Shown here in pieces: positions 1,351-58,366 of a stretch of DNA of 58,366 nucleotides. This DNA comes from a virus. A model generated the notes under the pieces. It was not told where the DNA came from and did not search any database. It was given only the letters and a program-made list of their open reading frames with translations. Within the stretch, counting starts at the first letter, position 1, and every line of letters begins with the position of its first letter. The DNA is taken from positions 1-58,366 of IMG/VR virus record IMGVR_UViG_3300029288_006769; one strand, given 5' to 3'. The position numbers were made by a program, and so were the translations under genes.

Positions 1351-1351
1351 T

Positions 1352-3301: not shown

Positions 3302-3302
3302 A

Positions 3303-6416: not shown

Positions 6417-6590
6417 AAATTGGTAGTAACATAATAAACTTACGACATTAAGGAAAATTATGGAAGAATTAATTGAAGCTCTACAGATTTTATTAAAATA
6501 TGGGTGTCCTCAATTCCCAACACATTGTGAACATGACACTTTATGTAGACATAAATCCTGATCTAGTAAACGCTGATGATCTGAGTAGAC

Positions 6591-8122: not shown

Positions 8123-8123
8123 T

Positions 8124-8375: not shown

Positions 8376-8391
8376 CACTAAATTACTCATA

Positions 8392-10155: not shown

Positions 10156-10241
10156 AAAGACCTCCTTTTTACTTAAAAATTATAAAAACTTTACAACTAT
10201 TAAATTGGCAACATTAAAAACATTCCTCGATATCTAAAATC

Positions 10242-11600: not shown

Positions 11601-11685
11601 GGCCTAATTAACACTAAAAATTACAATTACAAAAAATTAATTATTTACTGTGTTTATCATAACACACCCCTAAAAAGGAGTTGTT

Positions 11686-41720: not shown

Positions 41721-41812
41721 GGTTTTACTCCTAAGGTATACAGGGCAATGTACAAAAGGCAACCATAGATAATTATTAGGTTGCCTTTTGGGTATGACTA
41801 CGACCGTCGCGC

Positions 41813-43393
41813 TTATAAAGATAATGAAATTAGTTTGGGCCTGATTTTTGTATCCACCAGGACAATTTTTGTTTGTGCTGTGGCCGGGTATTTTGTGTTT
41901 GTTATTACTTTGAGTGATGCAAGTTCTCCCATGAGTGCACCGTCATAGGTGATTGTTACCAGGTTGCTGGTGTTTGCCTGGAATTCCGAGTTGTTGATTT
42001 GATGAATTGCACCCTGTAATGACGAACCTGCTCTGAAAGCGTAAGTTGCACCACCTGAACCGGCAATATGGATATAACCTTTGAACAAGCCAGGCCAACC
42101 GATTTGCCAGAGTTTCCCGCCGTCTTTTACGTAGAGCAACGTAGTAGAACTCGAGCTTGATTCGTACCAGTTACTGTTGATGCTCAACTCTTTGCTTACT
42201 ATGAAAATTACTTTGCCGGAAAAGATGCCCTGAACATCAGCAGTATAGAATGTTGGTACCGAATTGGAAATGGCAACAACCAGATAACCATTCCAAAGTT
42301 GATCGGCTGGTGTGTTGTCGTATGCATTTTGCAAGTTGGTACCGTTGAGTTTTGTGAAACCTAACGTTGAGAATTCTTTGATTTTATCCGAGGAAATTGT
42401 TGTCATGTTGATTATCGTTGCGTTTTCATTACCGCCTGAGATGTCAACATAGTCACTGATATTGAAGGAGCCTTTGTTTTCAAGAGCAGTGAGATTTTGG
42501 AATTGAGAAGCCATGCAACTACCTGAATGATAGGCTTTGTGGTTTTTCATGTCGACTTTGAAGGTGCCACTGATACTGTTCGTAAAGTACCCTTCTCCAT
42601 TGATATTGAGCGTGTTGAGCAGTTCAATATTTCTTTTGAAACCTGCTTTACCATTGACATCAAGTGAAGAGTTTTGCAATTTTACGGGCGTTTGGAAATA
42701 GGCATTTCCGTTAACAGTGAGTTGCCCGTTGAATTCCGTAGTAGTTCCATTGTCCCCGGTTTTGAGATAGCCGTTGATGATCGAGCCCGAGGCGTTGGAA
42801 TTGAACCGAACGCCACCACCGAAGTAGACATTGCCGTTGACGGTCATTTTCTGGTTGAAGTCGTAGCCGTCTTTCTGGATGTAGATTGCAAAGTCCTGTA
42901 CGGATGGTCGGTCAAATTCGGTACCGTCGAGTTGGTATGTTGCAACGGCTGTTTTTTTCTTGCCTGAAAATTGACCATAGCCGTTTCCTTGAACTATGAT
43001 ATGCGGGATGTTGTAACCGCCGTCACCTAATGCTTCACCGATTCCAAGAATGCAGACTGAAAATTTGGCTGGGTCGGTGACATTTGTGCTCATCGAGATT
43101 TTCTGTTCGCTTGAAGGGTCCGCCGAAAGGAGCCATTTTTTCGATTTTTCGGTCAGGTAATTGTTCATTACCGTTATCGATTCAACGGATTTCTTTTCAA
43201 GTTGGGTTTCGCAGGCTTTAACCGCAGTCGAAGCAGCCTGGTATGCGGAACGTGTTTTCCCTGCGTTTGCAACATTTGTCCTGTCATAACCGACCGTTTT
43301 GAGCATGACAGCGCCGGTAATACCGACGACGCAAACGAGACAAAGGGTGTAGACAATTGCGGCTGAACCGCGTTGATTGTTAAAGTTGAACAT
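41813..43393 (-). CDS. PilX-like type IV pilus minor pilin / assembly protein
   Basis: The N-terminus NNQRGSAAIVYTLCLVCVVGITGAVML resembles the PilX_N consensus (QRG followed by a hydrophobic helix). It is the last gene of the pilin-like operon. Confidence 0.35.
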   Translation of the reverse strand: MFNFNNQRGSAAIVYTLCLVCVVGITGAVMLKTVGYDRTNVANAGKTRSAYQAASTAVKACETQLEKKSVESITVMNNYLTEKSKKWLLSADPSSEQKISMSTNVTDPAKFSVCILGIGEALGDGGYNIPHIIVQGNGYGQFSGKKKTAVATYQLDGTEFDRPSVQDFAIYIQKDGYDFNQKMTVNGNVYFGGGVRFNSNASGSIINGYLKTGDNGTTTEFNGQLTVNGNAYFQTPVKLQNSSLDVNGKAGFKRNIELLNTLNINGEGYFTNSISGTFKVDMKNHKAYHSGSCMASQFQNLTALENKGSFNISDYVDISGGNENATIINMTTISSDKIKEFSTLGFTKLNGTNLQNAYDNTPADQLWNGYLVVAISNSVPTFYTADVQGIFSGKVIFIVSKELSINSNWYESSSSSTTLLYVKDGGKLWQIGWPGLFKGYIHIAGSGGATYAFRAGSSLQGAIHQINNSEFQANTSNLVTITYDGALMGELASLKVITNTKYPATAQTKIVLVDTKIRPKLISLSL

Positions 43394-43404
43394 AGAACCT
43401 CCTT

Positions 43405-44508
43405 TTAAAAAATTCCGTTGTTGAGCGTTTCGATTGTTTCAGTGCGTGTTTTCCATTCGTATTTCCCCGTTCTAGCTATTGATATGTTTCCTATTTCAAA
43501 TGGAGTAGTTTGGGCGTTACCTATATCGTTGGATTTGCTCCTTGTGACCATGGAAATTTTTATTGCGCGTACTGTTTTCTTTTTGGCAACTGATACACTG
43601 TCGAGCCATACAAATTTGCCGTAGTCCTGGCGTCTTACTTCAACACCATTGAGCATAAGTTGCCCTGAACTTTTTGTCCAGTATCGTATGGCAATTTTTC
43701 CTGTAGACGTTGCTTGCGTGTTGATTGTCAGGTGCTGGACGCGATTAACAGGCAGGAATTTTTCCACGCCCTTGTTTACTGTACTGTTGACAATACAACA
43801 TTGTAGCGAATCGAATATTTTGTCAGATACAATATCCAGTGCGACATTAAGGCGTTGGTTGGTGTCATTTGCAAATGATGTGTTGTAATAGATCATCCCT
43901 CTGCTTATACCAGAGAAATCGAACCGAACAGAGGAGCCTACGACTGTTGCTGTTGGTGTCGCACCGGATTCTGAGGCAATCAACCAGTTGCCGGGGATAG
44001 GTATCGGGTTCAAGTCCTGGAGCATCGAATCATTGGCAAATACTCCATATTGAAATTGTAGTCCTTGTACGTTAGCGCAAAATCGCAATTTCTGATTGTT
44101 GAGTTTCCTTATAAGGTTGTTCGAATCCAAATAGAATTCAACCGAGTCGGTCCGGACGTATTCACCGGTTTCTGACAGTTTTGCTTTGTAAATTTTCAGA
44201 GTGTCACTTGGGTCGCCCTGGCGTGCAACAAATGATGATGAATCCGCGATAAATGCGTTCGAAACAAGGTGTTTGTCGAATTTGGTGCCGTTGGGCGTCA
44301 GGTAGAATTTGCAGCCCATGTTGCGTATTTCGCGTACAAGGACGACAAGTGCATCTCTTGCATCGATCTGCATTTTTGTCATTTGCTGGGTTCTGTTGCT
44401 ACTCTTGGTTATGTCGGCATAGGATTTGTGCCAGAGTGAAATGACGATGCCGAAGATTACAATGCAGATCAGCAGTTCGATAATTGAAAGACCTTTTTGG
44501 TTGTTCAT
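43405..44508 (-). CDS. type IV prepilin-like protein (PilW/pseudopilin-like)
   Basis: MNNQKG|LSIIELLICIVIFGIV matches the prepilin peptidase site: G, then E at +5, then a hydrophobic helix. Confidence 0.55.
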   Translation of the reverse strand: MNNQKGLSIIELLICIVIFGIVISLWHKSYADITKSSNRTQQMTKMQIDARDALVVLVREIRNMGCKFYLTPNGTKFDKHLVSNAFIADSSSFVARQGDPSDTLKIYKAKLSETGEYVRTDSVEFYLDSNNLIRKLNNQKLRFCANVQGLQFQYGVFANDSMLQDLNPIPIPGNWLIASESGATPTATVVGSSVRFDFSGISRGMIYYNTSFANDTNQRLNVALDIVSDKIFDSLQCCIVNSTVNKGVEKFLPVNRVQHLTINTQATSTGKIAIRYWTKSSGQLMLNGVEVRRQDYGKFVWLDSVSVAKKKTVRAIKISMVTRSKSNDIGNAQTTPFEIGNISIARTGKYEWKTRTETIETLNNGIF

Positions 44509-44831
44509 TATATCCCCCTTGCAAACTGGGCATTTTTTGTTTTGTTGAAGGCACGCCAGGTGACTGTGATTGTTACTTGACTTACCTTTCCGGTGTCGGT
44601 GATTGTCCAGGTACGGACAAATTTGTAGTTGTCGACAACGGTTGAATCGACTCCGTTTGAGGGAGTGATTTGCACTTTGAGTTCCGCGAATTTGTCTTCA
44701 GCGACCAATTGCGCATTGTCGTTTAACCGCGCATCCTGTGACATCAGCAGAACATTGCGATAGCTCGCTGACATGTTGAGAGATACCATTGCAAGGATGA
44801 ACAATGCAATGATCAAACTGAGCAGCCTCAT
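44508..44831 (-). CDS. membrane-anchored PilV-like protein (first gene of the operon)
   Basis: Internal start MRLLSLIIALFILAMVSL with SD GGAGGCACC. The phage promoter core GAGATATCGTGCGC lies at 44878..44891. Confidence 0.35.
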   Translation of the reverse strand: MRLLSLIIALFILAMVSLNMSASYRNVLLMSQDARLNDNAQLVAEDKFAELKVQITPSNGVDSTVVDNYKFVRTWTITDTGKVSQVTITVTWRAFNKTKNAQFARGI

Positions 44832-44892
44832 GGTGCCTCCTACGTTAATTTTTGGTGAAGTTTTTTTCCTACAATGAGAGATATCGTGCGCC
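44832..44892 (-). promoter_or_regulatory. phage promoter/SD element driving the pilin-like operon
   Basis: Minus strand reads GCGCACGATATCTCTCATTGTAGG...GGAGGCACC-ATG. Confidence 0.5.
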
Positions 44893-47597: not shown

Positions 47598-48303
47598 AAA
47601 ACCTCCATTTTGGGGATATGGAGTATATCGTATAAGTTTTTAGAACTGCCACCTTAATATCTTTCTTGGTAGTAAAGAACTTTCATTGATTCGAGCGCTT
47701 TATTATTTTTCTCCAAGTATCCCTTGAAATTTTATATTTGAAAAAACAAACATCATTGTCATTGCCGAATGCAATGACATCGTCTGATTCGACTATAATT
47801 GGAATTTGTATAAAATCATTACTATCATTTATCATAGTTCTTGAGGTGAAAGCATGAATTGCGCCTTGATAGATCATATTGCCACGCTATACCAAAAACT
47901 CCTTTAGCTCGTATGAAATCTTGTGTATTTAGTTTTATCAGCTCATACTGATACCATGTACAAATACCTCCTCTAGAAAGATGAAACCATTTCCAGAAAG
48001 TCAATTTTGCTATGTTTTTTTGTTTTTATTCTGTTTACTGTAAGGCACATAGAGTCAGTTAGAATAGGCTCGAGCACAACAAAAATATTTCATAATAGTA
48101 TTATTCAATCCCAATACGGGGCTCAAATTTGTCGCAAATTTGGTGCCAATAAACTGTTTGGTCTTGATCTAAATCGCAAACACTCCAAGCATATTCATTT
48201 TCAGCATGTGTGCAATTGAAACAACATCGAGCTTCTCGTAAATTCATATCTCGTAAATTCATATTATATTTTATATTCAACTCAAACTAATATAAAAAGA
48301 AAT

Positions 48304-48534
48304 ATGAAAAAAGAAGATCTAGCAAATCGTTTGTTTTCTGATGTGAACGCAATAGTACCTGCGATTTTTAAAGGTTGCGTCATCTATAACAGACCAAGAG
48401 GCGGCTGGAAAGTTAAAGGTAGATTCCAGCTCGTGAATGATATATCTTTCGAAGATTTAGTTAAAAAATTAAAAGGAACTAACTTGACAGCTAGTATTGT
48501 AAAACGACACATCTGTATAACAAAGGATTATTAA
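48304..48534 (+). CDS. hypothetical small protein
   Basis: Track ORF. Confidence 0.35.
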   Translation: MKKEDLANRLFSDVNAIVPAIFKGCVIYNRPRGGWKVKGRFQLVNDISFEDLVKKLKGTNLTASIVKRHICITKDY

Positions 48535-48906
48535 ATGGATTTAAATGAATTTGTAGAAAAATTTGGTACTTTGTGTATACCGTATAAATCTAGTTTAGAT
48601 GATTTCTTTGGAGAAATGAAACTCTTCAAAAGACAGAATGAGTATAAAATTACTGGTGGCCCAGAAGGTTATCTTACATTCTCTGAAAGTCAGCCTGCAT
48701 TTGATTATTTTGAAAGTTTCTTTACTAATATTGGAGTGTTACAATGTCAAGTTATAACTGAAAATCCTGCATTAGCTGATGAAGAAGATTTAGAAAAGAT
48801 CCAAGAAGCTATAAACAAGAAAGTTGAAAGAACACAGACACTTGCTTGTTCGGGCGATCCTGCTGTCAGCGTAGGGCGTGGTTGGGTATCGACAGACAAC
48901 AACTAA
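48535..48906 (+). CDS. hypothetical protein
   Basis: Track ORF abutting the previous gene. Confidence 0.35.
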   Translation: MDLNEFVEKFGTLCIPYKSSLDDFFGEMKLFKRQNEYKITGGPEGYLTFSESQPAFDYFESFFTNIGVLQCQVITENPALADEEDLEKIQEAINKKVERTQTLACSGDPAVSVGRGWVSTDNN

Positions 48907-49131
48907 CTATCCTAAAGAAACAATAAATAAACCAATTTCTAGTAACTCTTCCGTTGTTAATCTTATTGATCTATTCAAGAAAAAAGAAGTCTGTCCTTGA
49001 ATTCTTTGTACACATCCAATATGTTTTCTGCCTTTATATATCTCATGAAACCAATAGGAACGATAATGGCGTTTGAATGTGAGTGTTCTAGTTTGCTTTG
49101 TTATTACGAACTGGCTTTTCATTCGCCTTTC

Positions 49132-49470
49132 TTAATTATCCCAAATCGATCTAGTTGCTGTCATTTTGTTTCGAGCATGCATAATTGAATCTGCTTTAGC
49201 TTTCCGAGCAGCACAATACTTGCAGTTACCTTTATGTGTTGGGCCACCATGGTAATCTGATGCTACAAAGAAATATTCACATGAATCGAATTCAAACACT
49301 TTGATGTCCCATGTCAATGAACCATCAACTAATTGATATTTAATTATAGAGTCTTGTATAGAATCTGTTCGAACTTTTGCGTTTATTATTTTTTCAGGTT
49401 TTTCAGGTGTGCTATCAAAAGAACAAACTACGCAGAAAAGCACTATAAAAATAGAACCTGTATATCTCAT
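49132..49470 (-). CDS. secreted small protein
   Basis: N-terminal signal-like MRYTGSIFIVLFCVVCS. Confidence 0.4.
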   Translation of the reverse strand: MRYTGSIFIVLFCVVCSFDSTPEKPEKIINAKVRTDSIQDSIIKYQLVDGSLTWDIKVFEFDSCEYFFVASDYHGGPTHKGNCKYCAARKAKADSIMHARNKMTATRSIWDN

Positions 49471-49853
49471 TATTTTTCCCTTGGTAGAATTGTAGTAACA
49501 ACTTTTTCTTTGAAAACAATGGTAAAAGGTATGTCAGCAATTTCCTTATGAAATCTACCTGACTTTAGCGTTTGTATCATTGTTTCTACATCTGGTGTTA
49601 AAATTTCACTCTCAATCTTCTCAATGTCCATTTTGTAGACACGCTCTAAATAGCGTATAATTGCATGTTCGGTAACTATAGGTTTCTTTGAATCTTCTAA
49701 TAAGTGTTTTTGTTCTAATTCATTCTTTTGAATGTCGTTTTGTGTTCTGTTTATTTCTTTGTTTAAATCATTTCTTTGCCCAATAAGAGTTTCTAATTTA
49801 GATTTTAAATTAGCGAGTCTTGTTTGAATAAGTTTTAGAACATCATGACTCAT
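49470..49853 (-). CDS. hypothetical coiled-coil protein
   Basis: Track ORF with an ATGA overlap. Confidence 0.4.
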   Translation of the reverse strand: MSHDVLKLIQTRLANLKSKLETLIGQRNDLNKEINRTQNDIQKNELEQKHLLEDSKKPIVTEHAIIRYLERVYKMDIEKIESEILTPDVETMIQTLKSGRFHKEIADIPFTIVFKEKVVTTILPREK

Positions 49854-50215
49854 TTTCGACTTTCACATGCTTTCCAAGTTTCATCTATACTCGGGTATCT
49901 GTCGTTTTCTTCCTGGAATTTCTCTACAAACTCTTCAAAGGTTCCTGCAGAAACAACTTCTTCGATTTCTTGTTGTTCTTGCTCTTCTTTCAAATGGGCA
50001 TTCTGAATTCTAAGTTCACCAATCTGTTCTTCAAGCTCATCAATTTTGGTTTCAAGTTCAGCATAATCTGATGCAGAGTTATGGTTCAACTCATCAAGAA
50101 GCCCTTCAATTATTTCGTCTGTTGTAGAACGACGTGAAATCTCGAAAAGCTTAAAAGTTGTTGCCTCGTCAAAATTCTTGCTACGGATAAGCAATTGAAG
50201 TTCTTGTAGTTCCAT
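49850..50215 (-). CDS. acidic coiled-coil protein
   Basis: E-rich heptad-like sequence. Confidence 0.4.
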   Translation of the reverse strand: MELQELQLLIRSKNFDEATTFKLFEISRRSTTDEIIEGLLDELNHNSASDYAELETKIDELEEQIGELRIQNAHLKEEQEQQEIEEVVSAGTFEEFVEKFQEENDRYPSIDETWKACESRK

Positions 50216-50286
50216 GAGAAAAGCTCCTTTGAAAATCTGTTTGACTTGTTTAGATTTTCTATATTGGGAGCCTTTATAAATTTATT

Positions 50287-50736
50287 TTATTGAATATAAG
50301 TATACACGGTTTTTGCCCAAAAAGTACTTTTAATTGGAATCTCCAAAAGCTGTTTATGTTGAGTATAAAAAAATACACCTTTTTTGGGATAGAATGTAAA
50401 CATTTCTACGGCGCCATTGTAGATTCCTACAGCTGTAATTTTATCGCCATCATCAAGTATTATAGTGGCTAACCGCGTGGTAGGTAAATTCTTTACGTCC
50501 CAAACATCAGAAAGATTCTTTGTATGATCAAAAATTACAGTAATATCATTTTTGTTATCATCAAAGATGAAAACTGGATACACTCCTGAAAAACCATCAT
50601 CTTCGACTGTCATTTTACCATCTTGGTAACCGAACCATTTTCCTTGAAGCGGTGTTTCGCATTTTGCAATAAAATAAGGTTTTGCTAAAATAGCAATGTT
50701 CAACAATAAAACAAGAAGATAACTCAAATAATTCAT
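50287..50736 (-). CDS. secreted protein
   Basis: Signal peptide MNYLSYLLVLLLNIAILAKP. Confidence 0.4.
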   Translation of the reverse strand: MNYLSYLLVLLLNIAILAKPYFIAKCETPLQGKWFGYQDGKMTVEDDGFSGVYPVFIFDDNKNDITVIFDHTKNLSDVWDVKNLPTTRLATIILDDGDKITAVGIYNGAVEMFTFYPKKGVFFYTQHKQLLEIPIKSTFWAKTVYTYIQ

Positions 50737-50751
50737 ATAAACCTTTCTAAT

Positions 50752-51348
50752 TTATTGACATAGGATTCCACTCTTTACGAAAGCTTTATCAAGTTTCTTG
50801 AGCTCTATATGGATTTTTTTGTCGATATCTTGCCATGTCATCCCTGTCAGTTCAAAATATATTGCTAAACGTTCTTCTAACCATGCTTTCTTGTCAGGAA
50901 CTTCATTAAAGGAAGGAACACCGTGGTATCTGTCAGCTAAAGACTTAAAACCTACGTCATCAACTATACAAGACTTATATTTGTCTGGGATCTTGTTCCA
51001 AATTGTTTTCACAAATATCGGGCATTTTTCATTACCATCGTATATGTAATAAGGAACTTCTCCAACATTTTTTATTTTTATTGTCTTACCTATCTTTATA
51101 GCCATCCATTTGACTACAAGAAAAATGTAATCTCTTTCTGGTTCGCAAGCATTGTAATCAAAACCGATAGCATTTTTCCTGTGATCATAAGACAAGCCTG
51201 TAGAATCTGCTATGTTTATTGCTAGTCGCGAATAATTATCTTTTTGATTGAATAATTGTGCAGGTTCTACATAGTGCTCCTGCAAAAATTCCCACATTTT
51301 AAGTAAGAGGACTTTGTTTTTTGCAATGCAAGAAATGCTATATCCCAT
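50752..51348 (-). CDS. hypothetical protein (third gene of the ATPase cassette)
   Basis: Coupled downstream of the 145-aa gene. Confidence 0.4.
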   Translation of the reverse strand: MGYSISCIAKNKVLLLKMWEFLQEHYVEPAQLFNQKDNYSRLAINIADSTGLSYDHRKNAIGFDYNACEPERDYIFLVVKWMAIKIGKTIKIKNVGEVPYYIYDGNEKCPIFVKTIWNKIPDKYKSCIVDDVGFKSLADRYHGVPSFNEVPDKKAWLEERLAIYFELTGMTWQDIDKKIHIELKKLDKAFVKSGILCQ

Positions 51349-51350
51349 TG

Positions 51351-51788
51351 TTACACCTCGACATAAACCGAATGCGTGAATTCTGGTGCCCTGACATCAG
51401 GCACGTCTTTAATTGTCATACCCAGTCTGACAGCAATTACGACTTCACCATCCTTATCAGACCATGAAAGGATTCCTTTTTTATATTCAAGGTCGTCTAT
51501 AGGACCAGAACATTTGGAACGAAATTTTCCATTTTTTTTGCATTCTACGACAAGTTTCTCTTTTCTTCTGCTTATAACTTCAGCAGCAATTAGATATTCT
51601 TTTTTCGTTTTCGAAACTGCTTTCTTGATTGGTTCGCATTTCACAATGAAGTAATTCTGGTGAGTGAAAACTTTCTCCATGACATCTTCTGCTTCTTTAA
51701 AAGTCATGGGGTCATTGCCTACGAAATGCAGTTTGCCATTATACTTCCACATGATAGCATAGAAAGGTTTCATATTCCCTCCAATCAT
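51351..51788 (-). CDS. hypothetical protein (second gene of the ATPase cassette)
   Basis: ATGA overlap with the ATPase gene. Confidence 0.4.
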   Translation of the reverse strand: MIGGNMKPFYAIMWKYNGKLHFVGNDPMTFKEAEDVMEKVFTHQNYFIVKCEPIKKAVSKTKKEYLIAAEVISRRKEKLVVECKKNGKFRSKCSGPIDDLEYKKGILSWSDKDGEVVIAVRLGMTIKDVPDVRAPEFTHSVYVEV

Positions 51789-52441
51789 TTATTGCTTGCC
51801 TTTATTAAAGCTGCAATTTCATCGTATACTTTTTCGTTTCTTGCAAAAAGATCTTCAAGATTACCAGGTTCGTCAACAGTATTAAGCCAAGTTTTAAGAT
51901 CAGAACAACCACCAACCCGGAGATGAGACGGATTCAAGGGAAGTAACTGACGGATCAAAGGCTTGCTGTGAGAAATAACAACAACAACAACACCTTTTGT
52001 CAGAGCCGGAAGGTTTTCGACAAATTCTTTTATTTTGACACCAACAGCACCAGAATATTTCTCGCTGAGCCCAATATCAAGCTCATCCCAAATAATATAA
52101 TGTTCGTTTTCTCTTTTCTGGCAATTTTTAATACCATTGACTACGGTTAATGCAGTCAGATAACCAGTAGAATTGTATGACTCATCACCATATATCATAG
52201 CAGAAGGAATGCCTGAAGAGCTACGCCCTTGTTGCGAAAGATGTATTACCTCGAGCTTCATTTGTTTTAAAATGGTGTAGTAAATACGACGGACAAAAGA
52301 TTTTCCAGTAGCATTTTCTCCGGTGACTACGACAATGTCTTTGTGCCCAGGGTCAAAGTGTGTGTTTAAAGGACCATTGAGACAAGCGAGCTCACACATA
52401 TCCGTAGTTAGAGCCACCATGTTCTTGGTTGAGTATTTCAT
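51785..52441 (-). CDS. small ABC-type/AAA ATPase
   Basis: Walker A VVVTGENATGKS, LSQQGRSSSG, Walker B IIWDELD and H-loop VVVVISHSK. It is preceded directly by the promoter core TTTATATCG with no SD (leaderless). Confidence 0.55.
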   Translation of the reverse strand: MKYSTKNMVALTTDMCELACLNGPLNTHFDPGHKDIVVVTGENATGKSFVRRIYYTILKQMKLEVIHLSQQGRSSSGIPSAMIYGDESYNSTGYLTALTVVNGIKNCQKRENEHYIIWDELDIGLSEKYSGAVGVKIKEFVENLPALTKGVVVVVISHSKPLIRQLLPLNPSHLRVGGCSDLKTWLNTVDEPGNLEDLFARNEKVYDEIAALIKASNK

Positions 52442-52460
52442 ACGGTTTATATCGTATTAA
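52442..52460 (-). promoter_or_regulatory. leaderless variant of the phage promoter, directly abutting the ATG of the ATPase gene
   Basis: Minus strand reads AATACGATATAAACCGT-ATG with no SD. Confidence 0.4.
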
Positions 52461-52916
52461 ATAGACTACTCAACCAATATATATTGTTTTTTAAATAGTT
52501 TCGCTAGAAGCCTGAAGAAAATGTTTTCTTTAGAAAATACAATGTCCGCAATATCTTTTCATTTTGCTATAATTTTCTCATATTCTTCGTCAGACAAACT
52601 TGTCCAAAGTAATTCGCCTGTTTCTTCGTCTACTAAGTTCCAGTGACTAAATTCGCCATTACCAGTAAATTCTTCATGTAATTTGGGTTTCATTTTTTAT
52701 CTCCTTTATTTACAGCACATTTTTTACACCACATAGCCACTATGCATAATTCTCCATCAAGATCAGAATGTTCTTTCATTGTTTTGCCTGATGTGTATAA
52801 CGAAACAAACTTGCCACATTGTTCACAGTTCATTGTAGATTTATTCTTCATAGAGGAATTTATATCTTTTCTAAGGAACTGTTATTATAATTAGTTCACA
52901 AGGAGAAAAACAAAAC

Positions 52917-53465
52917 ATGATTAAACATATTTATACGAAGTCTAGACGTGAAGTCGAGCATGCAATCATTACCGGTACAAGGTTATCAAAACAAACTTGG
53001 GCTTTAATATCTATTTGGAGTGGAGAAGAGCTTGTAACTCCTTTTAAGAATAGAGAAACGCTTGCAAGAATTGGATGTCCTGAAGCTTTGAGCGTTCGGT
53101 TTTCAGATGTCACAAAAGATGAATTTGAGAAGCGAGACCTTGCAAAAAATGGGTGTGTACTTTTTACAGAAGAAGCGGCAAAAGAAATTGTCAAGTTTGT
53201 CAACAAAATCAATGACATGGAAATACCAGACTTGTTTATACATTGTGCGGCTGGAATTTCAAGATCACCTGCTGTTGGATTATTTACTTGCAAATATCTA
53301 AATTTGGATGAAGCAGAGTTTAGAAAAGCAAATCCTCATATTTTACCAAATTTTTATGTTCTTAATATTCTAAATCAAGTCTCAGGTATAAATTCTAATT
53401 ATACCGAGTTTTGGATGACTCAAGAAAACATTGAAAAAAGAAACAAATTAGCTGAATTGTTTTAA
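52917..53465 (+). CDS. dual-specificity/tyrosine protein phosphatase (Cys-X5-Arg)
   Basis: HCAAGISRSPA matches the CX5R P-loop signature. Confidence 0.6.
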   Translation: MIKHIYTKSRREVEHAIITGTRLSKQTWALISIWSGEELVTPFKNRETLARIGCPEALSVRFSDVTKDEFEKRDLAKNGCVLFTEEAAKEIVKFVNKINDMEIPDLFIHCAAGISRSPAVGLFTCKYLNLDEAEFRKANPHILPNFYVLNILNQVSGINSNYTEFWMTQENIEKRNKLAELF

Positions 53466-54392
53466 ATGAAAGAATTCAGAAAAACACAAGAAGGAAGATT
53501 CATTTGTGAAGAATGCAATGAAACTTTTTCATCAAAAACGTTTTTAAGTATTCATAATATCAAGAAACATTGTTTGTCTCCAAAACAATATTATGACAAA
53601 TGGATTAAAGAAGAAGGTGAAGGAATTTGCGAATATTGTGGAAAAGAAGCAAGATTTATAAGAAGCGATACTGGATATCAACCAACCTGTTGCAGAGAAC
53701 ATGCTCACAAAATTGCTTTTAAAAAAACTAAACAAACAATGTTAAATAATTCTGGTGTAATAAACAATTTCCAAAGAGAATATGTAAAGACTAAAATAAA
53801 ACAAACAAATGTAAAAAAATTTGGATTTGATAACCCAAATAAGAACAAAGATGTTTTGCTTAAAAGATCTAACACTTGTTTGAAAAAATATGGAACAAGT
53901 GTTGCTATGAAATCTGATATTGTAAAAGAAAATGCGAGACAACTTTGTTTTAAAAAATACGGAGTATACTATAGTTTCCAAAGAGAAGATGTAAAACAAA
54001 AAATTACTGCTATTATTCTTGAAAGATATGGTGTTGAGCATCCATCGCAAAATTTAAGTTCACATAACAAAGGATTAAAAACAAGACTTCTCATTAAAAA
54101 TTTTAATGGAACAAATATAACTTATCAGGGTTCTTTTGAACTTGATTTTCTTGTTCATTATTTTGATAAACTTGAAATAAGAAACGGATTGTCATTTAGA
54201 TATGGGAAAAGAATGTATCACTCAGATTTTTATTTACCAGAATTCAATATGATCGTCGAAATAAAAAGCAGTTGGACTCTAAAATTAGATAATTTTATTA
54301 ATGAAAAATCAAAAACTGTTGTCGATCATGGATTCAAGTTCATTTTAATTGTCAACAAAAACTATGCTGAATTTGATAAAGCTATCTCTTGA
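53466..54392 (+). CDS. C2H2 zinc-finger protein with tandem KKYG repeats and a C-terminal PD-(D/E)XK-like motif; homing-endonuclease-like
   Basis: N-terminal FICEECNETF...HNIKKH. Repeats KKFGFDNP, KKYGTSVA, KKYGVYYS and ERYGVEHP. C-terminal DFYLPEFNMIVEIKS provides D...ExK. Confidence 0.35.
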   Translation: MKEFRKTQEGRFICEECNETFSSKTFLSIHNIKKHCLSPKQYYDKWIKEEGEGICEYCGKEARFIRSDTGYQPTCCREHAHKIAFKKTKQTMLNNSGVINNFQREYVKTKIKQTNVKKFGFDNPNKNKDVLLKRSNTCLKKYGTSVAMKSDIVKENARQLCFKKYGVYYSFQREDVKQKITAIILERYGVEHPSQNLSSHNKGLKTRLLIKNFNGTNITYQGSFELDFLVHYFDKLEIRNGLSFRYGKRMYHSDFYLPEFNMIVEIKSSWTLKLDNFINEKSKTVVDHGFKFILIVNKNYAEFDKAIS

Positions 54393-54870
54393 GAACTTCT
54401 CTTATGATTTTCTCAGTATTGACAGTTTGCTTAAAGCCTTGCGGAGTCATAGTAATCCCAAGAGTCTTTTCGACAACTTTCTTGTCATTTGCTTGCATCG
54501 TTTCGTGATCCTGGAATTCCCATCTGACTTTTCCAATTGCTTTTGCATCCCCCAGTTTGAAGTCCGAAATGACATCAAGTTTGTACTGGTCAGGGAAATC
54601 TTCTCCCCAAGCAACAACCCATTGGTTTTCGCCGCTCTCCATGATCCTGCCTCTGGGTAAACCCCGATAATTGTCCTCGATGAGTTCTACAGCTTTGTCT
54701 CTGTATCTGCGGCGAAGCAAGTTGACAATAGTATCCCAGAGCATGAGATGCACGGCTTCATTTCCTTCATCGTCATGCTCGGAATAAATAGTGTAATTAC
54801 CTGTCTTCGGGTCCGGGACAAGGTAGAACACGCCAGTCTTGGGTTTTTCAAAAGCTTTTTTCTGTTCCAT
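54382..54870 (-). CDS. hypothetical protein
   Basis: Track ORF. Confidence 0.4.
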   Translation of the reverse strand: MEQKKAFEKPKTGVFYLVPDPKTGNYTIYSEHDDEGNEAVHLMLWDTIVNLLRRRYRDKAVELIEDNYRGLPRGRIMESGENQWVVAWGEDFPDQYKLDVISDFKLGDAKAIGKVRWEFQDHETMQANDKKVVEKTLGITMTPQGFKQTVNTEKIIREVLKR

Positions 54871-55062
54871 TTACGATTCTTTCTTAGGTAAGACCTTCAA
54901 GGTCGCAACAGCTTGTTGCAGATTGGTAATGCACTTCTTGGCGATTTTGAGCAACTCTCCATCTCCACAAGAAGAGCAGAACAACATTCCGTTGATTTTT
55001 ACCGTTGCATCTTTTTGGCAGAAGCAGCAACAGCCTTGTTTGACTTTTTCAACGACAATCAT
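54871..55062 (-). CDS. Cys-rich small protein (63 aa)
   Basis: Internal start MIVVEKVKQGCCCFCQ is supported by the promoter/SD motif at 55063..55113. Confidence 0.45.
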   Translation of the reverse strand: MIVVEKVKQGCCCFCQKDATVKINGMLFCSSCGDGELLKIAKKCITNLQQAVATLKVLPKKES

Positions 55063-55246
55063 AACGATCTCCTTATAAAACGAAGATAAAACCTCGATGT
55101 CTATATCGTTTAGAAGCTTAATTGCTGCCGAATTATTTTCGACGACCAATGAAGATTGTTAAAAGAAGCAGAACGACTGTTACTCTTGTCATTTTTCTAC
55201 TGCTTTTATAGAGTCATTGGATATTACCAACAAGAGAGGAGTTTTT

Positions 55247-55999
55247 ATGAATATTATTCCAGATGTTTGGCGGTACAGTGAGGCGGCTGATCACGGGCCA
55301 AAAGCTTTAGACAATTTTGAGTTTCTAAAAGACAAAAAACTCACTAAAAACGATCACAAAGAATGTTTTTCTTATGTGAGCGAGGAAGAGAAACGTGTTG
55401 TATTTGTTTTTGCTGGTACTAAGGGCAATCTGAAATCATGGGCAAAAGATTTCTTGGCTTTGCCTTTGAAAAAAGATAGTCTGATTAACACAAAAACAAA
55501 TGAACCCGGTATTATTCATGCTGGCTTTTATGAACTGTGGTTAAAATCAAAACAAATGGTTGATGATACTCTTGTTAGAGCAGGTGACAAAGAAATAGTA
55601 GTTGGGGGAATGAGTCAAGGCGGGGCTCTGGCCGTATTGTGTGCAAGACATTTAGTCAAGAACAGAAATGTCAATAAATCAAATCTTACTCTAGTCACTT
55701 TTGGAGCTCCTGCACAAGGAATTGGAGAATATGCAACTCAAGTGAATGAATTGCTTAGCATGCATTATAGAGTTGTAGATGGTTATGATATTGTTCCTAC
55801 AATGCCGCCAGCAGTGGCTGGGTTTGTACATTCAGGTAGTTTAATTTGGCTAAAAGCACCTTGGTGGCACAAACTATTCATATTTATGAAAGTCCGTGCT
55901 CATTTCTATTCTTCTTACACCAAGGGTTTATTGAAGAAATTTACTAAACTCGAGGACCAAACTGAATTGAAAATAGTATTAAAAAGGGTATCAATCTAA
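55247..55999 (+). CDS. class 3 lipase / alpha-beta hydrolase
   Basis: VGGMSQGGALAVLCA gives the GxSxG nucleophile elbow in a Lipase_3-like context. SD AGAGGAG precedes MNIIPDVW. Confidence 0.55.
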   Translation: MNIIPDVWRYSEAADHGPKALDNFEFLKDKKLTKNDHKECFSYVSEEEKRVVFVFAGTKGNLKSWAKDFLALPLKKDSLINTKTNEPGIIHAGFYELWLKSKQMVDDTLVRAGDKEIVVGGMSQGGALAVLCARHLVKNRNVNKSNLTLVTFGAPAQGIGEYATQVNELLSMHYRVVDGYDIVPTMPPAVAGFVHSGSLIWLKAPWWHKLFIFMKVRAHFYSSYTKGLLKKFTKLEDQTELKIVLKRVSI

Positions 56000-56163
56000 T
56001 CAGTCTCGTAAGGCACGAGCACATCAAGTTATTGGGGCTATAGGATCTGTAGTCCCATCTTTTTTGGGTTCTTCGGCCTCGTCTGCTCTACACAATTTAG
56101 TCTGTTTATCGAAAAGCTGACACCCGACTAAAATGCAATAGTAATAATTTTTGGGTTTTGTCA

Positions 56164-56556
56164 TTACTCACCTGGCTTATCGATTACTCGAAGATGTGCT
56201 ACTCGAGCATTGAAGATACAACAGAATGTGCTGTCTATGTAATTGTAAACAATTTTACCCATGTACCACTGTTCTTTACGATCTCCGAACTCATTGTCTA
56301 TGATTTGTGCGATTTTAAGCTCTGCTTGATAGAGTTTGTTCGATTCGCTTTCGCTCACGCACACTTCAATTGCGGCCCCATTTTGGAAAAGTAAAGCAAT
56401 ATTCGGATTTAAGACAAGTAGTCTTTCACATTCTTTTTCAAGAGCCCCGGTAATAAGTTCAGTGAGTCCATCAGAATATTGGGTGAATCCACCAGTATAC
56501 ATCCAGGTGCCGTTTGGATTTTGGATGATACATACTTTATATGTCATTTCGTCCAT
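56164..56556 (-). CDS. hypothetical protein
   Basis: Track ORF with SD AAGGAG. Confidence 0.4.
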   Translation of the reverse strand: MDEMTYKVCIIQNPNGTWMYTGGFTQYSDGLTELITGALEKECERLLVLNPNIALLFQNGAAIEVCVSESESNKLYQAELKIAQIIDNEFGDRKEQWYMGKIVYNYIDSTFCCIFNARVAHLRVIDKPGE

Positions 56557-56754
56557 GTCACGCTCCTTTATTCGAGTTTACGTACCCATGAATTTTCAAA
56601 ACTCGTATCAGCTCCGAAAACCTCTGTTATCTTGTCTCTGACAGTGTGAACAGCTTTGCAGCCTTCTGTCATATGTGGGTCATAAGTTTTCGTACGAGAT
56701 AACGGTTACAATCACGGTGAAAACTGATGTTGATACTACATTTTTCTCTCCGTT

Positions 56755-57234
56755 CTATTTGGATCGAGTTTTCTTGGGAAACAGAGATGTTTTTCTTGGG
56801 ACAGGGCTCTTTTTGAGAACAGCAAGAACTCGCTGGTAGCTCAAACCGACTACTTTGCGTTTGCTTTTGTATTTTGTCCATCCGCAAAAAGCACATTTCA
56901 ACCCATAAGACTGCTCAACAAGACATGATTCGTTACAAGAAGGACATTTGAGTTTTTGTTTCTTCGCTTTAATGGGAGCATAATTTTGACAAGTGTGCTC
57001 AACTGCTTTTAAGAATTCATAAATTGCATAGGCATGTTGTTTTTTGCGGGGGCAATGTAAGTGCTTATCGTAACAGAACACGAATTTGTTTCTGATCCAT
57101 AGACCGTGTTTCGTTTTAGTACGACCAAACTTGATATCTTTTACGGGTATTTCAACTTTTGTTATATTAACAATTACAAAACTGACAGCTAGTCTTACTG
57201 GCAGACTGTTTAAATTGACATAATAATCTTTCAT
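56755..57234 (-). CDS. basic protein with a CxxC...CxxC zinc ribbon
   Basis: CPSCNESC...CAFCGW. Confidence 0.35.
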   Translation of the reverse strand: MKDYYVNLNSLPVRLAVSFVIVNITKVEIPVKDIKFGRTKTKHGLWIRNKFVFCYDKHLHCPRKKQHAYAIYEFLKAVEHTCQNYAPIKAKKQKLKCPSCNESCLVEQSYGLKCAFCGWTKYKSKRKVVGLSYQRVLAVLKKSPVPRKTSLFPKKTRSK

Positions 57235-57243
57235 GATCTTCCT

Positions 57244-57498
57244 TTAATAAAGTGTTGCTATCTTTTCTTTATCACGAAAATTATTGGTTTCGTAATAACC
57301 AGCAGTTAAAGACGATCTTGCTTCATTAAAGGCTATAATCTCTCGAGCTGATTTTTTGACGGTACCTTCGTGCTTGTCCACTGTACAAAAATCATGATCA
57401 AGCAGATCTTGGTCTTGAATCATTCTTATTAAGTCTCTGCCCTTCATAATACTTCTTTCTACGACTGAAAAAGCCAAGAAAAAGAAATCCACATGCAA
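57244..57498 (-). CDS. small protein, tandem paralog A
   Basis: MKGRDLIRMIQDQDLLDHDFCTVDKHEGTVKKSAREIIAFNEAR... It is ~70% identical to 57645..57848. Confidence 0.4.
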   Translation of the reverse strand: MHVDFFFLAFSVVERSIMKGRDLIRMIQDQDLLDHDFCTVDKHEGTVKKSAREIIAFNEARSSLTAGYYETNNFRDKEKIATLY

Positions 57499-57644
57499 TT
57501 ATTGAGTGCAAAATTCCTGTAATAAACGTGTTGAAAGAAGTGACTTTAACAAGGTCGGTATGCAATAACAAGCTTTCAGTATAACACTGTAAAGCCATGC
57601 CGGAAAACAACACGAAGACAATATTAAACAACCTATCTTTTTCC

Positions 57645-57848
57645 TTAGTTAAAAATTGCTATTTTTTCATCGCTGTTAAAATTATCAGTTTCGTAATAAC
57701 CACCAGCAGAGGACAATCTTGCATCGTTAAAGACTATAATCTCCCGAGCTGATTTTTTGATAGCACCTTCATGTCTGTCCACCGTACAAAAATCATGGTC
57801 GAGTAGATTTTGTTCCCGAATCATTTTTATTAAGTCTCTGCCCTTCAT
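57645..57848 (-). CDS. small protein, tandem paralog B
   Basis: MKGRDLIKMIREQNLLDHDFCTVDRHEGAIKKSAREIIVFNDAR... Confidence 0.4.
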   Translation of the reverse strand: MKGRDLIKMIREQNLLDHDFCTVDRHEGAIKKSAREIIVFNDARLSSAGGYYETDNFNSDEKIAIFN

Positions 57849-58366
57849 AGTTTCTTCCTATTCTATTTCCTTGTCAATATTTTATAAAAACAATATCGAT
57901 TATCTTCAGAAAGGTTGCCAATGACAAAAGAACAATGGCAAAGTTTAAAAGTCGGTGATTTTATCTACTCAAAAACTGGAAGTAAACGAGAAATCGTAAA
58001 AATCTCCCAAAAAAATGGATTAACTGATTGTGTTTCTTTAAAAATTTTGCGTCATTCAAAGTACAACGATAAACTAACCGTTTATTGCGCAAACGATCGT
58101 AAACACTGGCAGCTTAAATTGTAACCCAAACAGTAGTAGACAGTTTTTCAACATTGATTGGTACGTAATTTTTTGACTCAATACGAAATTTTTCGGGTAC
58201 ATCGAAGCTAAACATTTTGTATTTTTTATCTCCTGCTAAAATAGCAGCTTCTTTATCAAGGATATTTATCTTTGTTTTCAAGAAAGCCAAATAGGTATAC
58301 AGACCTGTAAATACATTATTTTTGACACAGACAAAACCGGCTTCGAGAAGCAATTGAACGGTCAAA

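What the first reader, a model, noticed from the sequence alone, without database searches (positions are those of the whole stretch)
41813..44892. Phage-encoded type IV minor-pilin-like operon under the phage promoter
Three consecutive minus-strand genes carry N-termini characteristic of type IV pilus minor pilins. The 367-aa protein has a textbook prepilin leader (QKG|LSIIELLICIVIFGIV, Glu at +5). The 526-aa protein begins with a PilX_N-like QRG-plus-hydrophobic-helix. The first gene is a membrane-anchored ~107-aa protein.

The operon is preceded by the phage promoter core (GAGATATCGTGCGC at 44878) plus an SD, so the phage itself expresses it. Minor pilin sets (PilV/W/X) prime pilus assembly in bacteria. 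A phage copy could remodel or block the host pilus (superinfection exclusion or receptor masking), build a pseudopilus, or decorate the virion.

The operon is rare in tailed phages. It also hints that the host is a Gram-negative bacterium with type IV pili or a T2SS.
Basis: partly seen in the sequence, partly recalled or inferred. Interest (0 to 1): 0.75.

Follow-up and report, generated by a model that had tools for sequence, protein, structure and literature searches.

The report
Huge-phage copy of pilus-tip proteins
A giant bacteriophage, probably infecting cellulose-degrading Fibrobacterota, carries its own three-gene set for the tip complex of the host's type IV pilus, including a large adhesin-like tip protein, so the virus probably decides what sits at the tip of the pili of an infected cell.

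Summary
On the minus strand, 41813-44891 is a compact unit. It has a recurring phage promoter-like motif, a Shine-Dalgarno site, three coupled genes (107, 367 and 526 aa) and a terminator-like hairpin.

The 367-aa protein passes Pfam's thresholds for N_methyl and PilW. All three proteins are homologous to, and in the same order as, genes 2-4 of a four-gene chromosomal minor-pilin operon. In the GTDB species genomes that operon turned up only in Fibrobacterota.

The window belongs to a ~422-kb contig with rIIA/rIIB, so it is a huge phage mis-binned as Nanoarchaeia. Eight phage-type lineages carry the same trio. The seven with a K-like protein in the tree form one clade, and in the five measured the cassette's GC matches the phage contig's.

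Three points are new:
- The phages always lack the first, FimU/GspH-like gene.
- The phage GspI/PilV-like protein has no leader; its Met1 sits at the mature +1 position.

Best reading: a phage-made tip and priming complex, assembled by the host pilus machinery. Whether it serves adhesion, phage exclusion or pilus blockage is inferred, not shown. This is a new variant of a known kind (prophage FimU).

The parts
44878..44891 (-). Phage promoter-like motif GCGCACGATATCTC (core GCGCACGATAT at 44881-44891)
   Evidence: The core occurs 8 times in the window with at most 1 mismatch, against 0.51 expected. All copies are on the minus strand and each lies upstream of an SD plus ATG. A related CGATAT core lies upstream of the trio in L006 and L007.
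44836..44841 (-). Shine-Dalgarno AGGAGG, 4 nt before the ATG of the first gene
   Evidence: Read directly from the sequence.
44508..44831 (-). Gene I: 107-aa leaderless GspI/PilV-like minor pilin (MRLLSLIIALFILA...)
   Evidence: 37% identical (E 1e-22) to the 122-aa second gene of the Chitinispirillaceae minor-pilin operon, which has a normal leader SG|ASLIE. Full-length but sub-threshold TIGR01707 GspI match. AF2 model with pLDDT 82: helix 2-53 plus a 4-stranded sheet. The only full-length Foldseek match is chain R of 9a1f, an XcpGHIJK pseudopilus model (19% identity; assigned to XcpV/GspI by inference); named EpsI/XcpV (GspI) complexes follow. About 45 of 57 short homologue representatives carry Gly-1/Glu+5 leaders.
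43405..44508 (-). Gene J: 367-aa PilW/GspJ-like prepilin (leader MNNQKG, Glu+5); its start overlaps the stop of gene I
   Evidence: Pfam N_methyl 29.7 bits and PilW 26.3 bits, both above gathering score. N_methyl matches 9 of 9 and PilW 6 of 9 family members. 31-33% identical over its full length to the third gene of the bacterial operons.
43398..43404 (-). Shine-Dalgarno AAGGAGG for gene K
   Evidence: Read directly from the sequence.
41813..43393 (-). Gene K: 526-aa tip-pilin-like protein (leader MFNFNNQRG, no Glu+5), a pilin module fused to a beta-helix and a C-terminal beta domain
41816..42877 (-). Part of gene K that encodes residues 173-526: beta-helix (about 176-290) plus the C-terminal beta domain, the tapirin/ComZ-like exposed head
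41753..41790 (-). Terminator-like hairpin (12-bp stem) after gene K
   Evidence: RNA fold of -20.7 kcal/mol, z -2.94. Comparable hairpin-like inverted repeats are visible by eye after the trio in L006 and L007; they were not folded.

Best explanation
This is a phage-borne copy of the core tip and priming complex of the host's type IV filament. It holds the I-, J- and K-type minor pilins (PilV/W/X or GspI/J/K equivalents), taken long ago from a Fibrobacterota minor-pilin operon and kept by a clade of huge phages.

Shown:
- The three genes form one promoter-to-terminator unit with coupled translation.
- J is a canonical prepilin with a PilW domain.
- I and K are full-length homologues of the neighbouring bacterial genes.
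- K carries a large beta-helical head that matches pilus-associated adhesins.

Inferred mechanism:
- After infection the phage promoter drives synthesis of the three proteins, which insert into the inner membrane.
- The host prepilin peptidase cleaves J and K. I needs no cleavage because it is made without a leader.
- The three form a heterotrimer like GspI-J-K or PilV-W-X.
- That heterotrimer docks on the host assembly platform, primes polymerisation of the host major pilin and ends up at the pilus tip, displaying the phage-made tapirin-like head.
- New pili of an infected cell are therefore initiated and tipped by phage proteins.

Inferred pay-off, in order of preference:
(a) Keep adhesive pili being made, and so keep the infected cellulolytic cell attached to its polysaccharide substrate, through a long huge-phage infection in which host gene expression may be shut down (assumed, not tested).
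(b) Replace the host tip so that other phages cannot use it.
For: Identity:
- Pfam N_methyl and PilW above cut-off for J.
- Homology plus conserved gene order of I-J-K with chromosomal operons in Chitinispirillaceae, Fibrobacter and other Fibrobacterota, beside clpB in L009/L018, L013 and L021 and close to ribosomal protein genes in L009.
- Pilin folds in both AF2 models. GspI-type chains supply most of the near-full-length matches for I, though local methyltransferase hits rank first by E-value. ComZ, GspK and a minor pilin appear among the matches for K.

Phage ownership:
- rIIA and rIIB in the window and a contig of 422-424 kb.
- The same locus in five independent assemblies.
- The trio in eight phage-type lineages with unrelated flanking genes.
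- One phage clade in the tree.
- Cassette GC equal to that of each phage contig.
- The promoter motif.

Assembly competence:
- Gly-1 and Glu+5 of J are invariant.
- Gly-1 of K is nearly invariant.
- Glu at +5, counted from Met1, is kept in 3 of 7 leaderless phage I proteins.
- All domains of K are conserved.

Adhesion pay-off:
- Fibrobacteres carry type IV pilus genes that are implicated in cellulose attachment (PMC4704652, PMC3079729).
- The exposed head is the most conserved part among phage copies.
- A related phage contig has a GH5 cellulase about 3 kb from its trio.
Against: - No experiment and no complex prediction shows that the three proteins interact with each other or with host machinery.
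- The phage lacks the H-type (FimU/GspH-like) connector, so it depends on the host's copy, or the complex may not link to the major pilin at all.
- The leaderless I protein has Arg or Lys at +2, and in 4 of 7 lineages it has no Glu+5. That could make it assembly-defective rather than assembly-ready.
- Cellulose binding by the K head is inferred from the fold at 13-14% identity.
- The only experimentally characterised phage-encoded minor pilin (P-FimU) acts in phage exclusion, not adhesion (PMC12952977).
- The rest of the 422-kb genome was not available, so I could not check for other pilus genes or for virion genes.
- The host assignment rests on homologue distribution only.
Confidence: 0.45

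Rival explanations
1. Receptor replacement for superinfection exclusion. The mechanism is the same as in the best explanation (an assembly-competent phage tip complex), but the benefit differs. The phage-made tip cannot be bound by this phage or by competing phages that adsorb to the pilus tip, as shown for prophage-encoded FimU in Pseudomonas.
For: - Experimental precedent: P-FimU is incorporated at the pilus tip, keeps pilus function and blocks tip-binding phages. The same paper reports PilA-like genes in virulent phages (PMC12952977).
- Bacterial K-type genes occur as 2-3 diverged tandem copies, and their exposed head is less conserved than their N-terminal helix, as expected if the host tip is under phage pressure.
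- The cassette sits among small accessory genes under a phage promoter.
Against: - Among phage copies the exposed head is the most conserved region (0.55-0.58) and the N-terminal helix the least (0.35). That is the opposite of the hyper-diversity reported for P-FimU.
- Three large genes are a costly way to mask a receptor.
- No pilus-tip-binding phage of Fibrobacterota is known.
Confidence: 0.3
2. Dominant-negative plug. The phage trio forms a dead-end complex that occupies the pilus (or type II secretion) assembly platform and stops filament assembly. This would remove pili as phage receptors or shut down secretion.
For: - The phage-specific changes sit exactly where assembly is decided: no leader on I, a basic residue at +2, Glu+5 lost in 4 of 7 lineages, and no H-type connector.
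- Overexpression of a single minor pilin is reported to disrupt pilus assembly (cited in PMC12952977).
- The SD sites are strong and the promoter is the phage's own.
Against: - A plug would not need a conserved 350-residue exposed head, yet this is the best-conserved part in phages.
- J and K keep Gly-1, J keeps Glu+5, and 3 of 7 I proteins keep Glu+5, as expected for subunits that are extracted from the membrane and assembled.
- Phages elsewhere manage with a 60-residue PilA fragment or small PilB inhibitors (PMC12952977, PMC13436744).
Confidence: 0.15
3. DNA-uptake tip. The K-type protein is a ComZ-like DNA receptor. The phage would then boost or redirect pilus-mediated DNA uptake, for example to scavenge nucleotides, or block it.
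Against: - Competence has not been described for Fibrobacterota, to my knowledge.
- No other competence genes lie near the cassette, in the phage or in the bacterial loci.
Confidence: 0.04
4. Not a phage feature at all: either bacterial DNA mis-assembled into a phage contig, or the whole contig is a bacterial or plasmid sequence. A related alternative is that the proteins are virion (tail-fibre-like) parts.
For: - NCBI files one copy under a Nanoarchaeia MAG.
- No capsid, terminase or tail gene lies in the 58-kb window.
Against: - The same junctions occur in five independent assemblies from different samples.
- The cassette's GC is close to the host contig's GC in the five other phage-type lineages measured.
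- The phage copies form a distinct clade.
- The phage promoter motif lies upstream.
- rIIA/rIIB, homing endonucleases and dense ORFan genes fill the window, which has no housekeeping genes.
- Class III signal peptides and homology to chromosomal minor-pilin operons argue against virion parts, and the only PHROG hit with a structural label is a 14-bit match at E=0.073 for the first ORF.
Confidence: 0.04

Closest known systems
Prophage-encoded FimU (P-FimU) of F10-like Pseudomonas aeruginosa phages (Sztanko et al., Cell Rep 2026, PMC12952977)
   Same: A phage-encoded homologue of a host type IV pilus minor pilin, expressed from the phage genome and expected to be assembled by the host machinery at the pilus tip.
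   Different: - P-FimU is one gene, the FimU/GspH-type connector, which is exactly the subunit these phages lack. Here three genes (I, J, K types) make up the core tip complex.
- The carriers here are huge phages of 280-424 kb with rIIA/rIIB, not temperate siphophages.
- One subunit is leaderless.
- The exposed parts are conserved rather than hyper-variable.
- Function is untested here.
GspI-GspJ-GspK / XcpV-W-X pseudopilus tip complex of type II secretion, and PilV-PilW-PilX of type IVa pili
   Same: - Gene order is small I-type, then mid-size J-type with Glu+5, then large K-type without Glu+5.
- J matches Pfam PilW.
- The model of I resembles EpsI/XcpV.
   Different: - All three fall below the NCBIfam equivalog cut-offs for GspI and GspJ, and PilX_N does not match.
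- K carries a beta-helix head instead of the alpha-helical insertion of GspK.
- No PilY1 gene is present.
- The cassette is phage-borne and lacks the H-type partner.
Tapirins of Caldicellulosiruptor (PDB 4wa0, 6n2b, 6n2c)
   Different: - Tapirins are separate proteins encoded near the pilus locus of a Gram-positive thermophile. Here the domain is fused to a pilin module.
- Sequence identity is 13-14%.
- Cellulose binding is untested here.
ComZ, competence-associated tip pilin of Thermus thermophilus (PDB 6qvi; PMC6561018)
   Different: 10% identity. ComZ pairs with PilA2 and binds DNA, and it is chromosomal.

Membership tests
Type IV pilin / pseudopilin superfamily (class III signal peptide; Pfam PF07963 N_methyl, TIGR02532) | A short basic leader ending in Gly-1, followed by a hydrophobic helix with Glu at +5 (protein J, 367 aa) | tested here: met
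   N_methyl 29.7 bits (cut-off 21.2) and TIGR02532 20.0 bits (cut-off 16.3). Gly-1 and Glu+5 are invariant in 9 homologues.
Type IV pilin / pseudopilin superfamily | Class III signal peptide in protein I (107 aa) | tested here: not met
   The protein starts MRLLSL with Met1 aligned to the mature +1 residue. It has no leader and no Gly-1, and Ser stands at +5. Its bacterial homologues, and about 45 of 57 short representatives, do have the signal. It is therefore a derived, leaderless member by homology.
Type IV pilin / pseudopilin superfamily | Pilin fold: a long N-terminal helix packed on an antiparallel beta-sheet (proteins I and K) | tested here: met
   - I: AF2 model with helix 2-53 plus 4 strands, pLDDT 82, though only 1 of 5 models is confident. 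Matches include chain R of 9a1f (an XcpGHIJK pseudopilus model; chain identity inferred), TMq 0.63, plus named EpsI/XcpV complexes, but Foldseek E-values are only 0.025-0.2.
PilW (Pfam PF16074) | HMM score at or above the gathering threshold | tested here: met
   26.3 bits against a cut-off of 26.0, residues 301-360. This is a marginal pass, but 6 of 9 family members match, best E 2.5e-7.
GspI (TIGR01707) and GspJ (TIGR01711) equivalogs of type II secretion | Score above the NCBIfam equivalog cut-off | tested here: not met
   GspI scores 16.8-17.3 bits against 44.35, although the match covers the whole profile (2-97 of 101). GspJ scores 12 bits against 64.85. The proteins are therefore GspI/GspJ-like, not equivalogs.
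PilX_N (Pfam PF14341) | HMM match to the N-terminus of the 526-aa protein | tested here: not met
   No hit at E<=1 for the window protein. One of 18 family members matches at E=0.56.
I-J-K minor-pilin tip / priming complex (GspIJK, PilVWX) | Three adjacent genes in the order I-J-K, co-transcribed | tested here: met
   The order and sizes are conserved in eight phage-type lineages and in the six bacterial loci whose full operon was read. Start and stop codons overlap or are closely spaced, with one promoter motif and one hairpin.
I-J-K minor-pilin tip / priming complex | The three proteins form a heterotrimer that primes filament assembly | not testable with these tools
   No multimer prediction or experiment was available.
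Phage-encoded minor pilin used for anti-phage defence (P-FimU type) | Homologue of FimU (H-type minor pilin) encoded by a phage | tested here: not met
   tblastn of four bacterial H-type proteins against the window and five phage loci finds only the shared N-terminal helix of the J gene. No further class III signal is present.
Phage-encoded minor pilin used for anti-phage defence (P-FimU type) | Blocks adsorption of pilus-tip-binding phages | not testable with these tools
   Needs adsorption assays.
Tapirin-like adhesins | The tapirin C-terminal beta-helix fold | tested here: met
Tapirin-like adhesins | Binds cellulose | not testable with these tools
   Needs binding assays with the purified head domain.
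Huge (jumbo) phage | Phage hallmark genes and a genome over 200 kb | tested here: inconclusive
   - rIIA (PHROG E 1e-69) and rIIB (E 2e-56) lie in the window.
- The contigs are 422-424 kb, and relatives reach 282-373 kb.
- Neither the window nor the fetched loci contain a capsid, terminase or tail gene, and the rest of the contig could not be read.

The most novel reading that the evidence does not exclude
A clade of huge phages of cellulolytic Fibrobacterota carries an 'adhesion auxiliary gene set'. It is a self-sufficient pilus-tip initiation complex whose small subunit is made already mature, bypassing the prepilin peptidase, and whose large subunit is a pilin-fused, tapirin-like cellulose adhesin. 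The phage would thereby keep the infected cell piliated and anchored to cellulose while host expression is shut down. This would also identify the long-sought pilus-tip adhesin of Fibrobacterota.
Probability: 0.3. Interest if true: 0.82.

Novelty: new variant of a known kind. Interest (0 to 1): 0.68.

Why it matters
Phage-encoded pilus parts have only recently been shown to matter. The single case is FimU in temperate Pseudomonas phages, which acts in phage-phage competition.

Here a complete tip and priming module of three co-adapted subunits has been kept for a long time by huge phages of an uncultured-rich, biotechnologically important phylum of fibre degraders. If it is functional, it shows that a virus can take over initiation of a host surface filament rather than swap one subunit.

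It offers three further things:
- A natural leaderless pilin, a tool for asking what the leader and N-methylation are for.
- A candidate pilus-tip adhesin in Fibrobacterota. This K-type family has a tapirin-like head, which links cellulose adhesion in Gram-negative Fibrobacterota to that in Gram-positive Caldicellulosiruptor.
- A host marker for a group of 280-424 kb phages, at least one copy of which is currently mis-binned as Nanoarchaeia.

Tried and rejected
Searches that found nothing:
- DNA (blastn) and protein (tblastn) searches of the cassette against 50,697 GenBank phage records gave no match.
- IMG/VR scans with rIIA and with the K-family alignment gave no confirmed relatives. The phage group is therefore absent from those collections, or the pattern search missed it.
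- Profile searches of the I and J families against PDB sequences found only the shared N-terminal pilin helix or chance hits.
- PHROGs gave nothing useful for the three proteins.

The two-sequence alignment was used instead, and only 1 of 5 models was confident.
- The afdb50 fold library was unavailable.

Checks that came back negative:
- Whether the neighbouring genes (97 and 159 aa upstream, 100 aa downstream) travel with the trio. They do not, apart from one weak 159-aa hit elsewhere in L006, so I excluded them from the system.
- Any further prepilin gene or an H-type gene in the window and in five phage loci. None was found.
- Whether the amber-suppressor tRNA means the window is recoded. 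No large ORFs merge when TAG is read as sense, and the three pilin genes are intact under the standard code.

Considered and rejected:
- The 133-aa TTG start for gene I. It would run through the promoter motif, it lacks a Gly-1 cleavage site, and gene callers and the alignment support the ATG at 44831.
- The bactofilin and ice-binding-protein hits to K. These are generic beta-helix similarity.


Full report
**1. What is in the sequence**

On the minus strand there are three consecutive ORFs.
- 44508-44831: 107 aa from the ATG at 44831. A longer TTG reading of 133 aa exists.
- 43405-44508: 367 aa.
- 41813-43393: 526 aa.

The unit is compact.
- GCGCACGATATCTC lies at 44878-44891.
- AGGAGG lies 4 nt before the first ATG.
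- The stop of gene 1 overlaps the start of gene 2 (TAATG).
- AAGGAGG lies 4 nt before the third ATG.
- A 12-bp hairpin at 41753-41790 follows the third stop (-20.7 kcal/mol, z -2.9).

The motif core GCGCACGATAT, with at most one mismatch, occurs 8 times in the window against 0.51 expected. None of 100 shuffles reaches 8. All 8 copies are on the minus strand, and each lies about 15-70 nt upstream of a Shine-Dalgarno site plus ATG. That it is a promoter is inferred from its position. Related phage contigs keep a CGATAT core upstream of the same trio, and hairpin-like inverted repeats are visible downstream.

**2. What the window is**

The window encodes the following.
- rIIA (725 aa, PHROG 612, E 1e-69) and rIIB (E 2e-56).
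- An FtsK/SpoIIIE-type ATPase and a DUF932 protein.
- A homing endonuclease.
- Many small ORFan genes and no housekeeping genes.

The 367-aa protein occurs with 100% identity on contigs of 422,226 and 424,144 bp. It is also found in five independent assemblies with the same neighbours. NCBI files one copy under a 'Candidatus Nanoarchaeia' MAG, which looks like a binning error.

I conclude that this is a huge phage. The caveat is that no virion gene lies in the stretch I could read. Nothing similar is present in GenBank phage records or IMG/VR.

**3. Identity of the three proteins**

*Protein J (367 aa).*
- It starts MNNQKG|LSIIELLICIV.
- It passes the curated cut-offs of Pfam N_methyl (29.7 against 21.2 bits), Pfam PilW (26.3 against 26.0, residues 301-360) and TIGR02532.
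- Across nine homologues N_methyl matches 9 of 9 and PilW 6 of 9.
- Gly-1 and Glu+5 are invariant.

*Bacterial relatives.* The database searches returned few relatives. Their genomic contexts separate into two kinds.

The bacterial kind is a chromosomal four-gene operon, found in six loci:
- L009/L018, Chitinispirillaceae.
- L013.
- L016, Fibrobacterota.
- L021, which carries a Fib_succ_major gene and hydrogenase genes.
- L019 and L020, Fibrobacter (read to the contig end, inside the fourth gene).

L015 and L017 show only the last genes of the operon at a contig end.

The four genes are:
- H: 185-210 aa, with an N_methyl match in L009, L013 and L016.
- I: 116-122 aa.
- J: 364-392 aa.
- K: 521-578 aa, present in one to three tandem copies.

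In L009/L018, L013 and L021 the operon lies next to clpB, and in L009 close to ribosomal protein genes.

*Pairwise matches of the window proteins.*
- I: 37% identical, E 1e-22.
- J: 31-33% identical.
- K: 31% identical, E 4e-70 over its full length, and 44% to the nearest bacterial copy, P0014 in L021.

A scan of one genome per GTDB species with the K-family alignment returned seven loci, all in Fibrobacterota. This makes that phylum the source of the cassette and the probable host. The host inference rests on this distribution alone. The literature separately reports jumbo phages linked by CRISPR spacers to Fibrobacterales (PMC12607003) and jumbo phage families associated with Fibrobacterota (PMC12826114).

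**4. Structures**

Foldseek also ranks a tapirin first (E 2.7e-4).

Tapirins are cellulose-binding proteins encoded beside the type IV pilus locus (bioRxiv 10.1101/359786). ComZ is a pilin with an inserted beta-solenoid, proposed to sit at the pilus tip (PMC6561018).

K is therefore best described as a K-type (tip) pilin fused to an adhesin-like head. Pfam PilX_N does not match it.

*Protein I.* The model has pLDDT 82, from only two sequences, and only one of five models is confident. It is a minimal pilin: helix 2-53 plus four strands. Its only full-length PDB match is chain R of 9a1f, an XcpGHIJK pseudopilus model (TMq 0.63), which I take to be XcpV, the GspI-type subunit. EpsI and XcpV complexes follow, at weak E-values of 0.025-0.2. 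The GspI NCBIfam profile matches over its full length but far below its cut-off.

**5. Phage-specific features**

(a) *The trio is the conserved unit.* The same three genes, with sizes of 98-108, 364-384 and 503-540 aa, occur in eight phage-type lineages:
- the window;
- L006 (54.7 kb, with ribosomal protein S21);
- L007/L008 (with S21 and a GH5 cellulase);
- L011/L012 (373 and 282 kb);
- the contig that carries P0004;
- L022;
- L023;
- L024 (with YopX).

Their neighbours are unrelated from one lineage to the next.

(b) *No H-type gene.* None of the phage loci holds an H-type gene or any further prepilin.

(c) *A leaderless I protein.* In all seven lineages whose DNA I hold, protein I begins M[RK][LI][LIV][SE][LI]. 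Met1 aligns to the mature +1 residue of the bacterial proteins, which have ordinary leaders such as SG|ASLVE.

A full HMMER search of 1.84 billion representatives found 71 relatives. About 45 of the 57 short ones carry Gly-1 and Glu+5. Clear leaderless forms are the phage ones only.

Glu at position 5 from Met1 is kept in three of the seven phage lineages. This fits a protein that is made 'already processed'.

(d) *One phage clade.* In a neighbour-joining tree of K proteins the phage copies form one clade. The bacterial copy of L021 and a copy of unknown context, P0018, branch beside it. All other bacterial copies lie outside (no bootstrap).

(e) *GC content.* The cassette's GC equals that of each phage contig (0.26-0.41 in relatives, 0.44 here), not that of the bacterial loci (0.42-0.52). 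It is therefore an old resident, not a recent capture or an assembly chimera.

(f) *Conservation pattern.* Among phage K proteins the exposed beta-helix and C-domain are the most conserved parts (0.58 and 0.55 mean identity) and the N-terminal helix the least (0.35). Bacterial copies show the reverse: 0.41 and 0.46 against 0.53.

**6. How it most likely works**

*Shown.* This is an autonomous, phage-promoted, translationally coupled operon. It encodes homologues of the I, J and K minor pilins of a Fibrobacterota type IV filament, and K carries an adhesin-like head.

*From established knowledge.* In type II secretion (GspI-J-K) and type IVa pili (PilV-W-X), these three subunits form the complex that starts filament assembly and stays at the tip. 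The H-type subunit links the complex to the major pilin.

*Inferred sequence of events.*
- The phage proteins insert into the inner membrane.
- The host prepilin peptidase cleaves J and K. Protein I needs no cleavage.
- The trimer competes with, or replaces, the host complex on the assembly platform.
- New pili then carry the phage-made head.

*Pay-off.* I rank three possibilities.
- **Sustaining adhesive pili on the polysaccharide substrate during a long infection.** For it: the tapirin-like fold, the conserved head, the retained assembly signals, a GH5 cellulase beside the trio in one relative, and type IV pili implicated in cellulose attachment in this phylum (PMC4704652, PMC3079729).
- **Receptor replacement against other phages.** This is the only experimentally shown role of a phage minor pilin (P-FimU, PMC12952977). 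The conservation pattern argues mildly against an arms race.
- **A dominant-negative plug.** The altered N-terminus of I and the missing H gene suggest it. The conserved 350-residue head and the retained Gly-1 and Glu+5 argue against it.

None of these can be decided without experiments or multimer modelling.

**7. Comparison with what is known, and novelty**

Full-text literature searches turned up the following phage-encoded pilus components.
- FimU of temperate Pseudomonas phages.
- PilA-like genes in Xylella prophages and in four types of virulent phage, including truncated copies in six Pseudomonas phages.
- Small PilB inhibitors.

I found no report of a phage-borne I-J-K set, of a naturally leaderless minor pilin, or of pilins in huge phages.

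The cassette is a member of the pilin superfamily. J meets the sequence criteria. I and K qualify by homology and by fold. The three are not equivalogs of GspI, GspJ or PilX. I rate the finding a new variant of a known kind.

**8. Limits**

- The rest of the 422-kb genome, complex prediction and any wet-lab test were out of reach.
- The model of protein I rests on two sequences.
- The tree has no support values.
- Host and ligand assignments are inferences.

Noticed in passing
window 1278-1350 (-): A tRNA with anticodon CTA, an amber suppressor that ARAGORN labels tRNA-Pyl. Suppressor tRNAs in large phages often go with stop-codon recoding of late genes. Reading TAG as sense raises ORF coverage at 12-36 kb but merges no large ORFs, so recoding of this window is not shown.
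   Followed up: partly
window 1-12000, 12000-36000 and 48000-58366: GC content steps sharply: 0.32-0.37 at both ends against 0.43-0.50 at 12-36 kb. The higher-GC block holds rIIA, rIIB, an FtsK/SpoIIIE ATPase and DUF932. Together with the pilin cassette, it also holds every copy of the GCGCACGATAT upstream motif, always on the minus strand. It may be a separately regulated (early?) module or an acquired block.
   Followed up: partly
L009 3498-8535; L013 10001-13209; L015 1135-4324: Fibrobacterota chromosomes carry two or three diverged tandem copies of the K-type tip pilin with the tapirin-like head, and the operon lies near clpB in L009/L018, L013 and L021. This suggests alternative pilus tips, with different ligands or as an escape from phages. 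The phages carry a single copy.
   Followed up: partly
L007 5898-7494: A related phage-type contig encodes a GH5 cellulase (also matching Glyco_hydro_35) and ribosomal protein S21 about 3 kb upstream of its pilin trio. L006 also has S21, a NAPRTase and an HD-domain protein nearby.
   Followed up: no
L011 20436-21578; L012 13918-15252: The 373-kb and 282-kb relatives carry a TnpB/Cas12f-like gene (OrfB_IS605 plus Cas12f1-like_TNB) about 9 kb downstream of the trio.
   Followed up: no
window 53466-54392 (+) and 55217-55999 (+): A DUF7487 protein with an N-terminal C2H2-like zinc finger, matching homing-endonuclease PHROGs, and an esterase/lipase-like protein. A Lipase_3 gene lies just downstream of the trio in L006 and L007.
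   Followed up: no
NCBI GCA_028717785.1 contig JAQUND010000060.1 (L005): The same phage locus is deposited in a MAG labelled Candidatus Nanoarchaeia or Nanoarchaeota. This is probably a binning error that puts phage genes into archaeal protein sets.
   Followed up: partly
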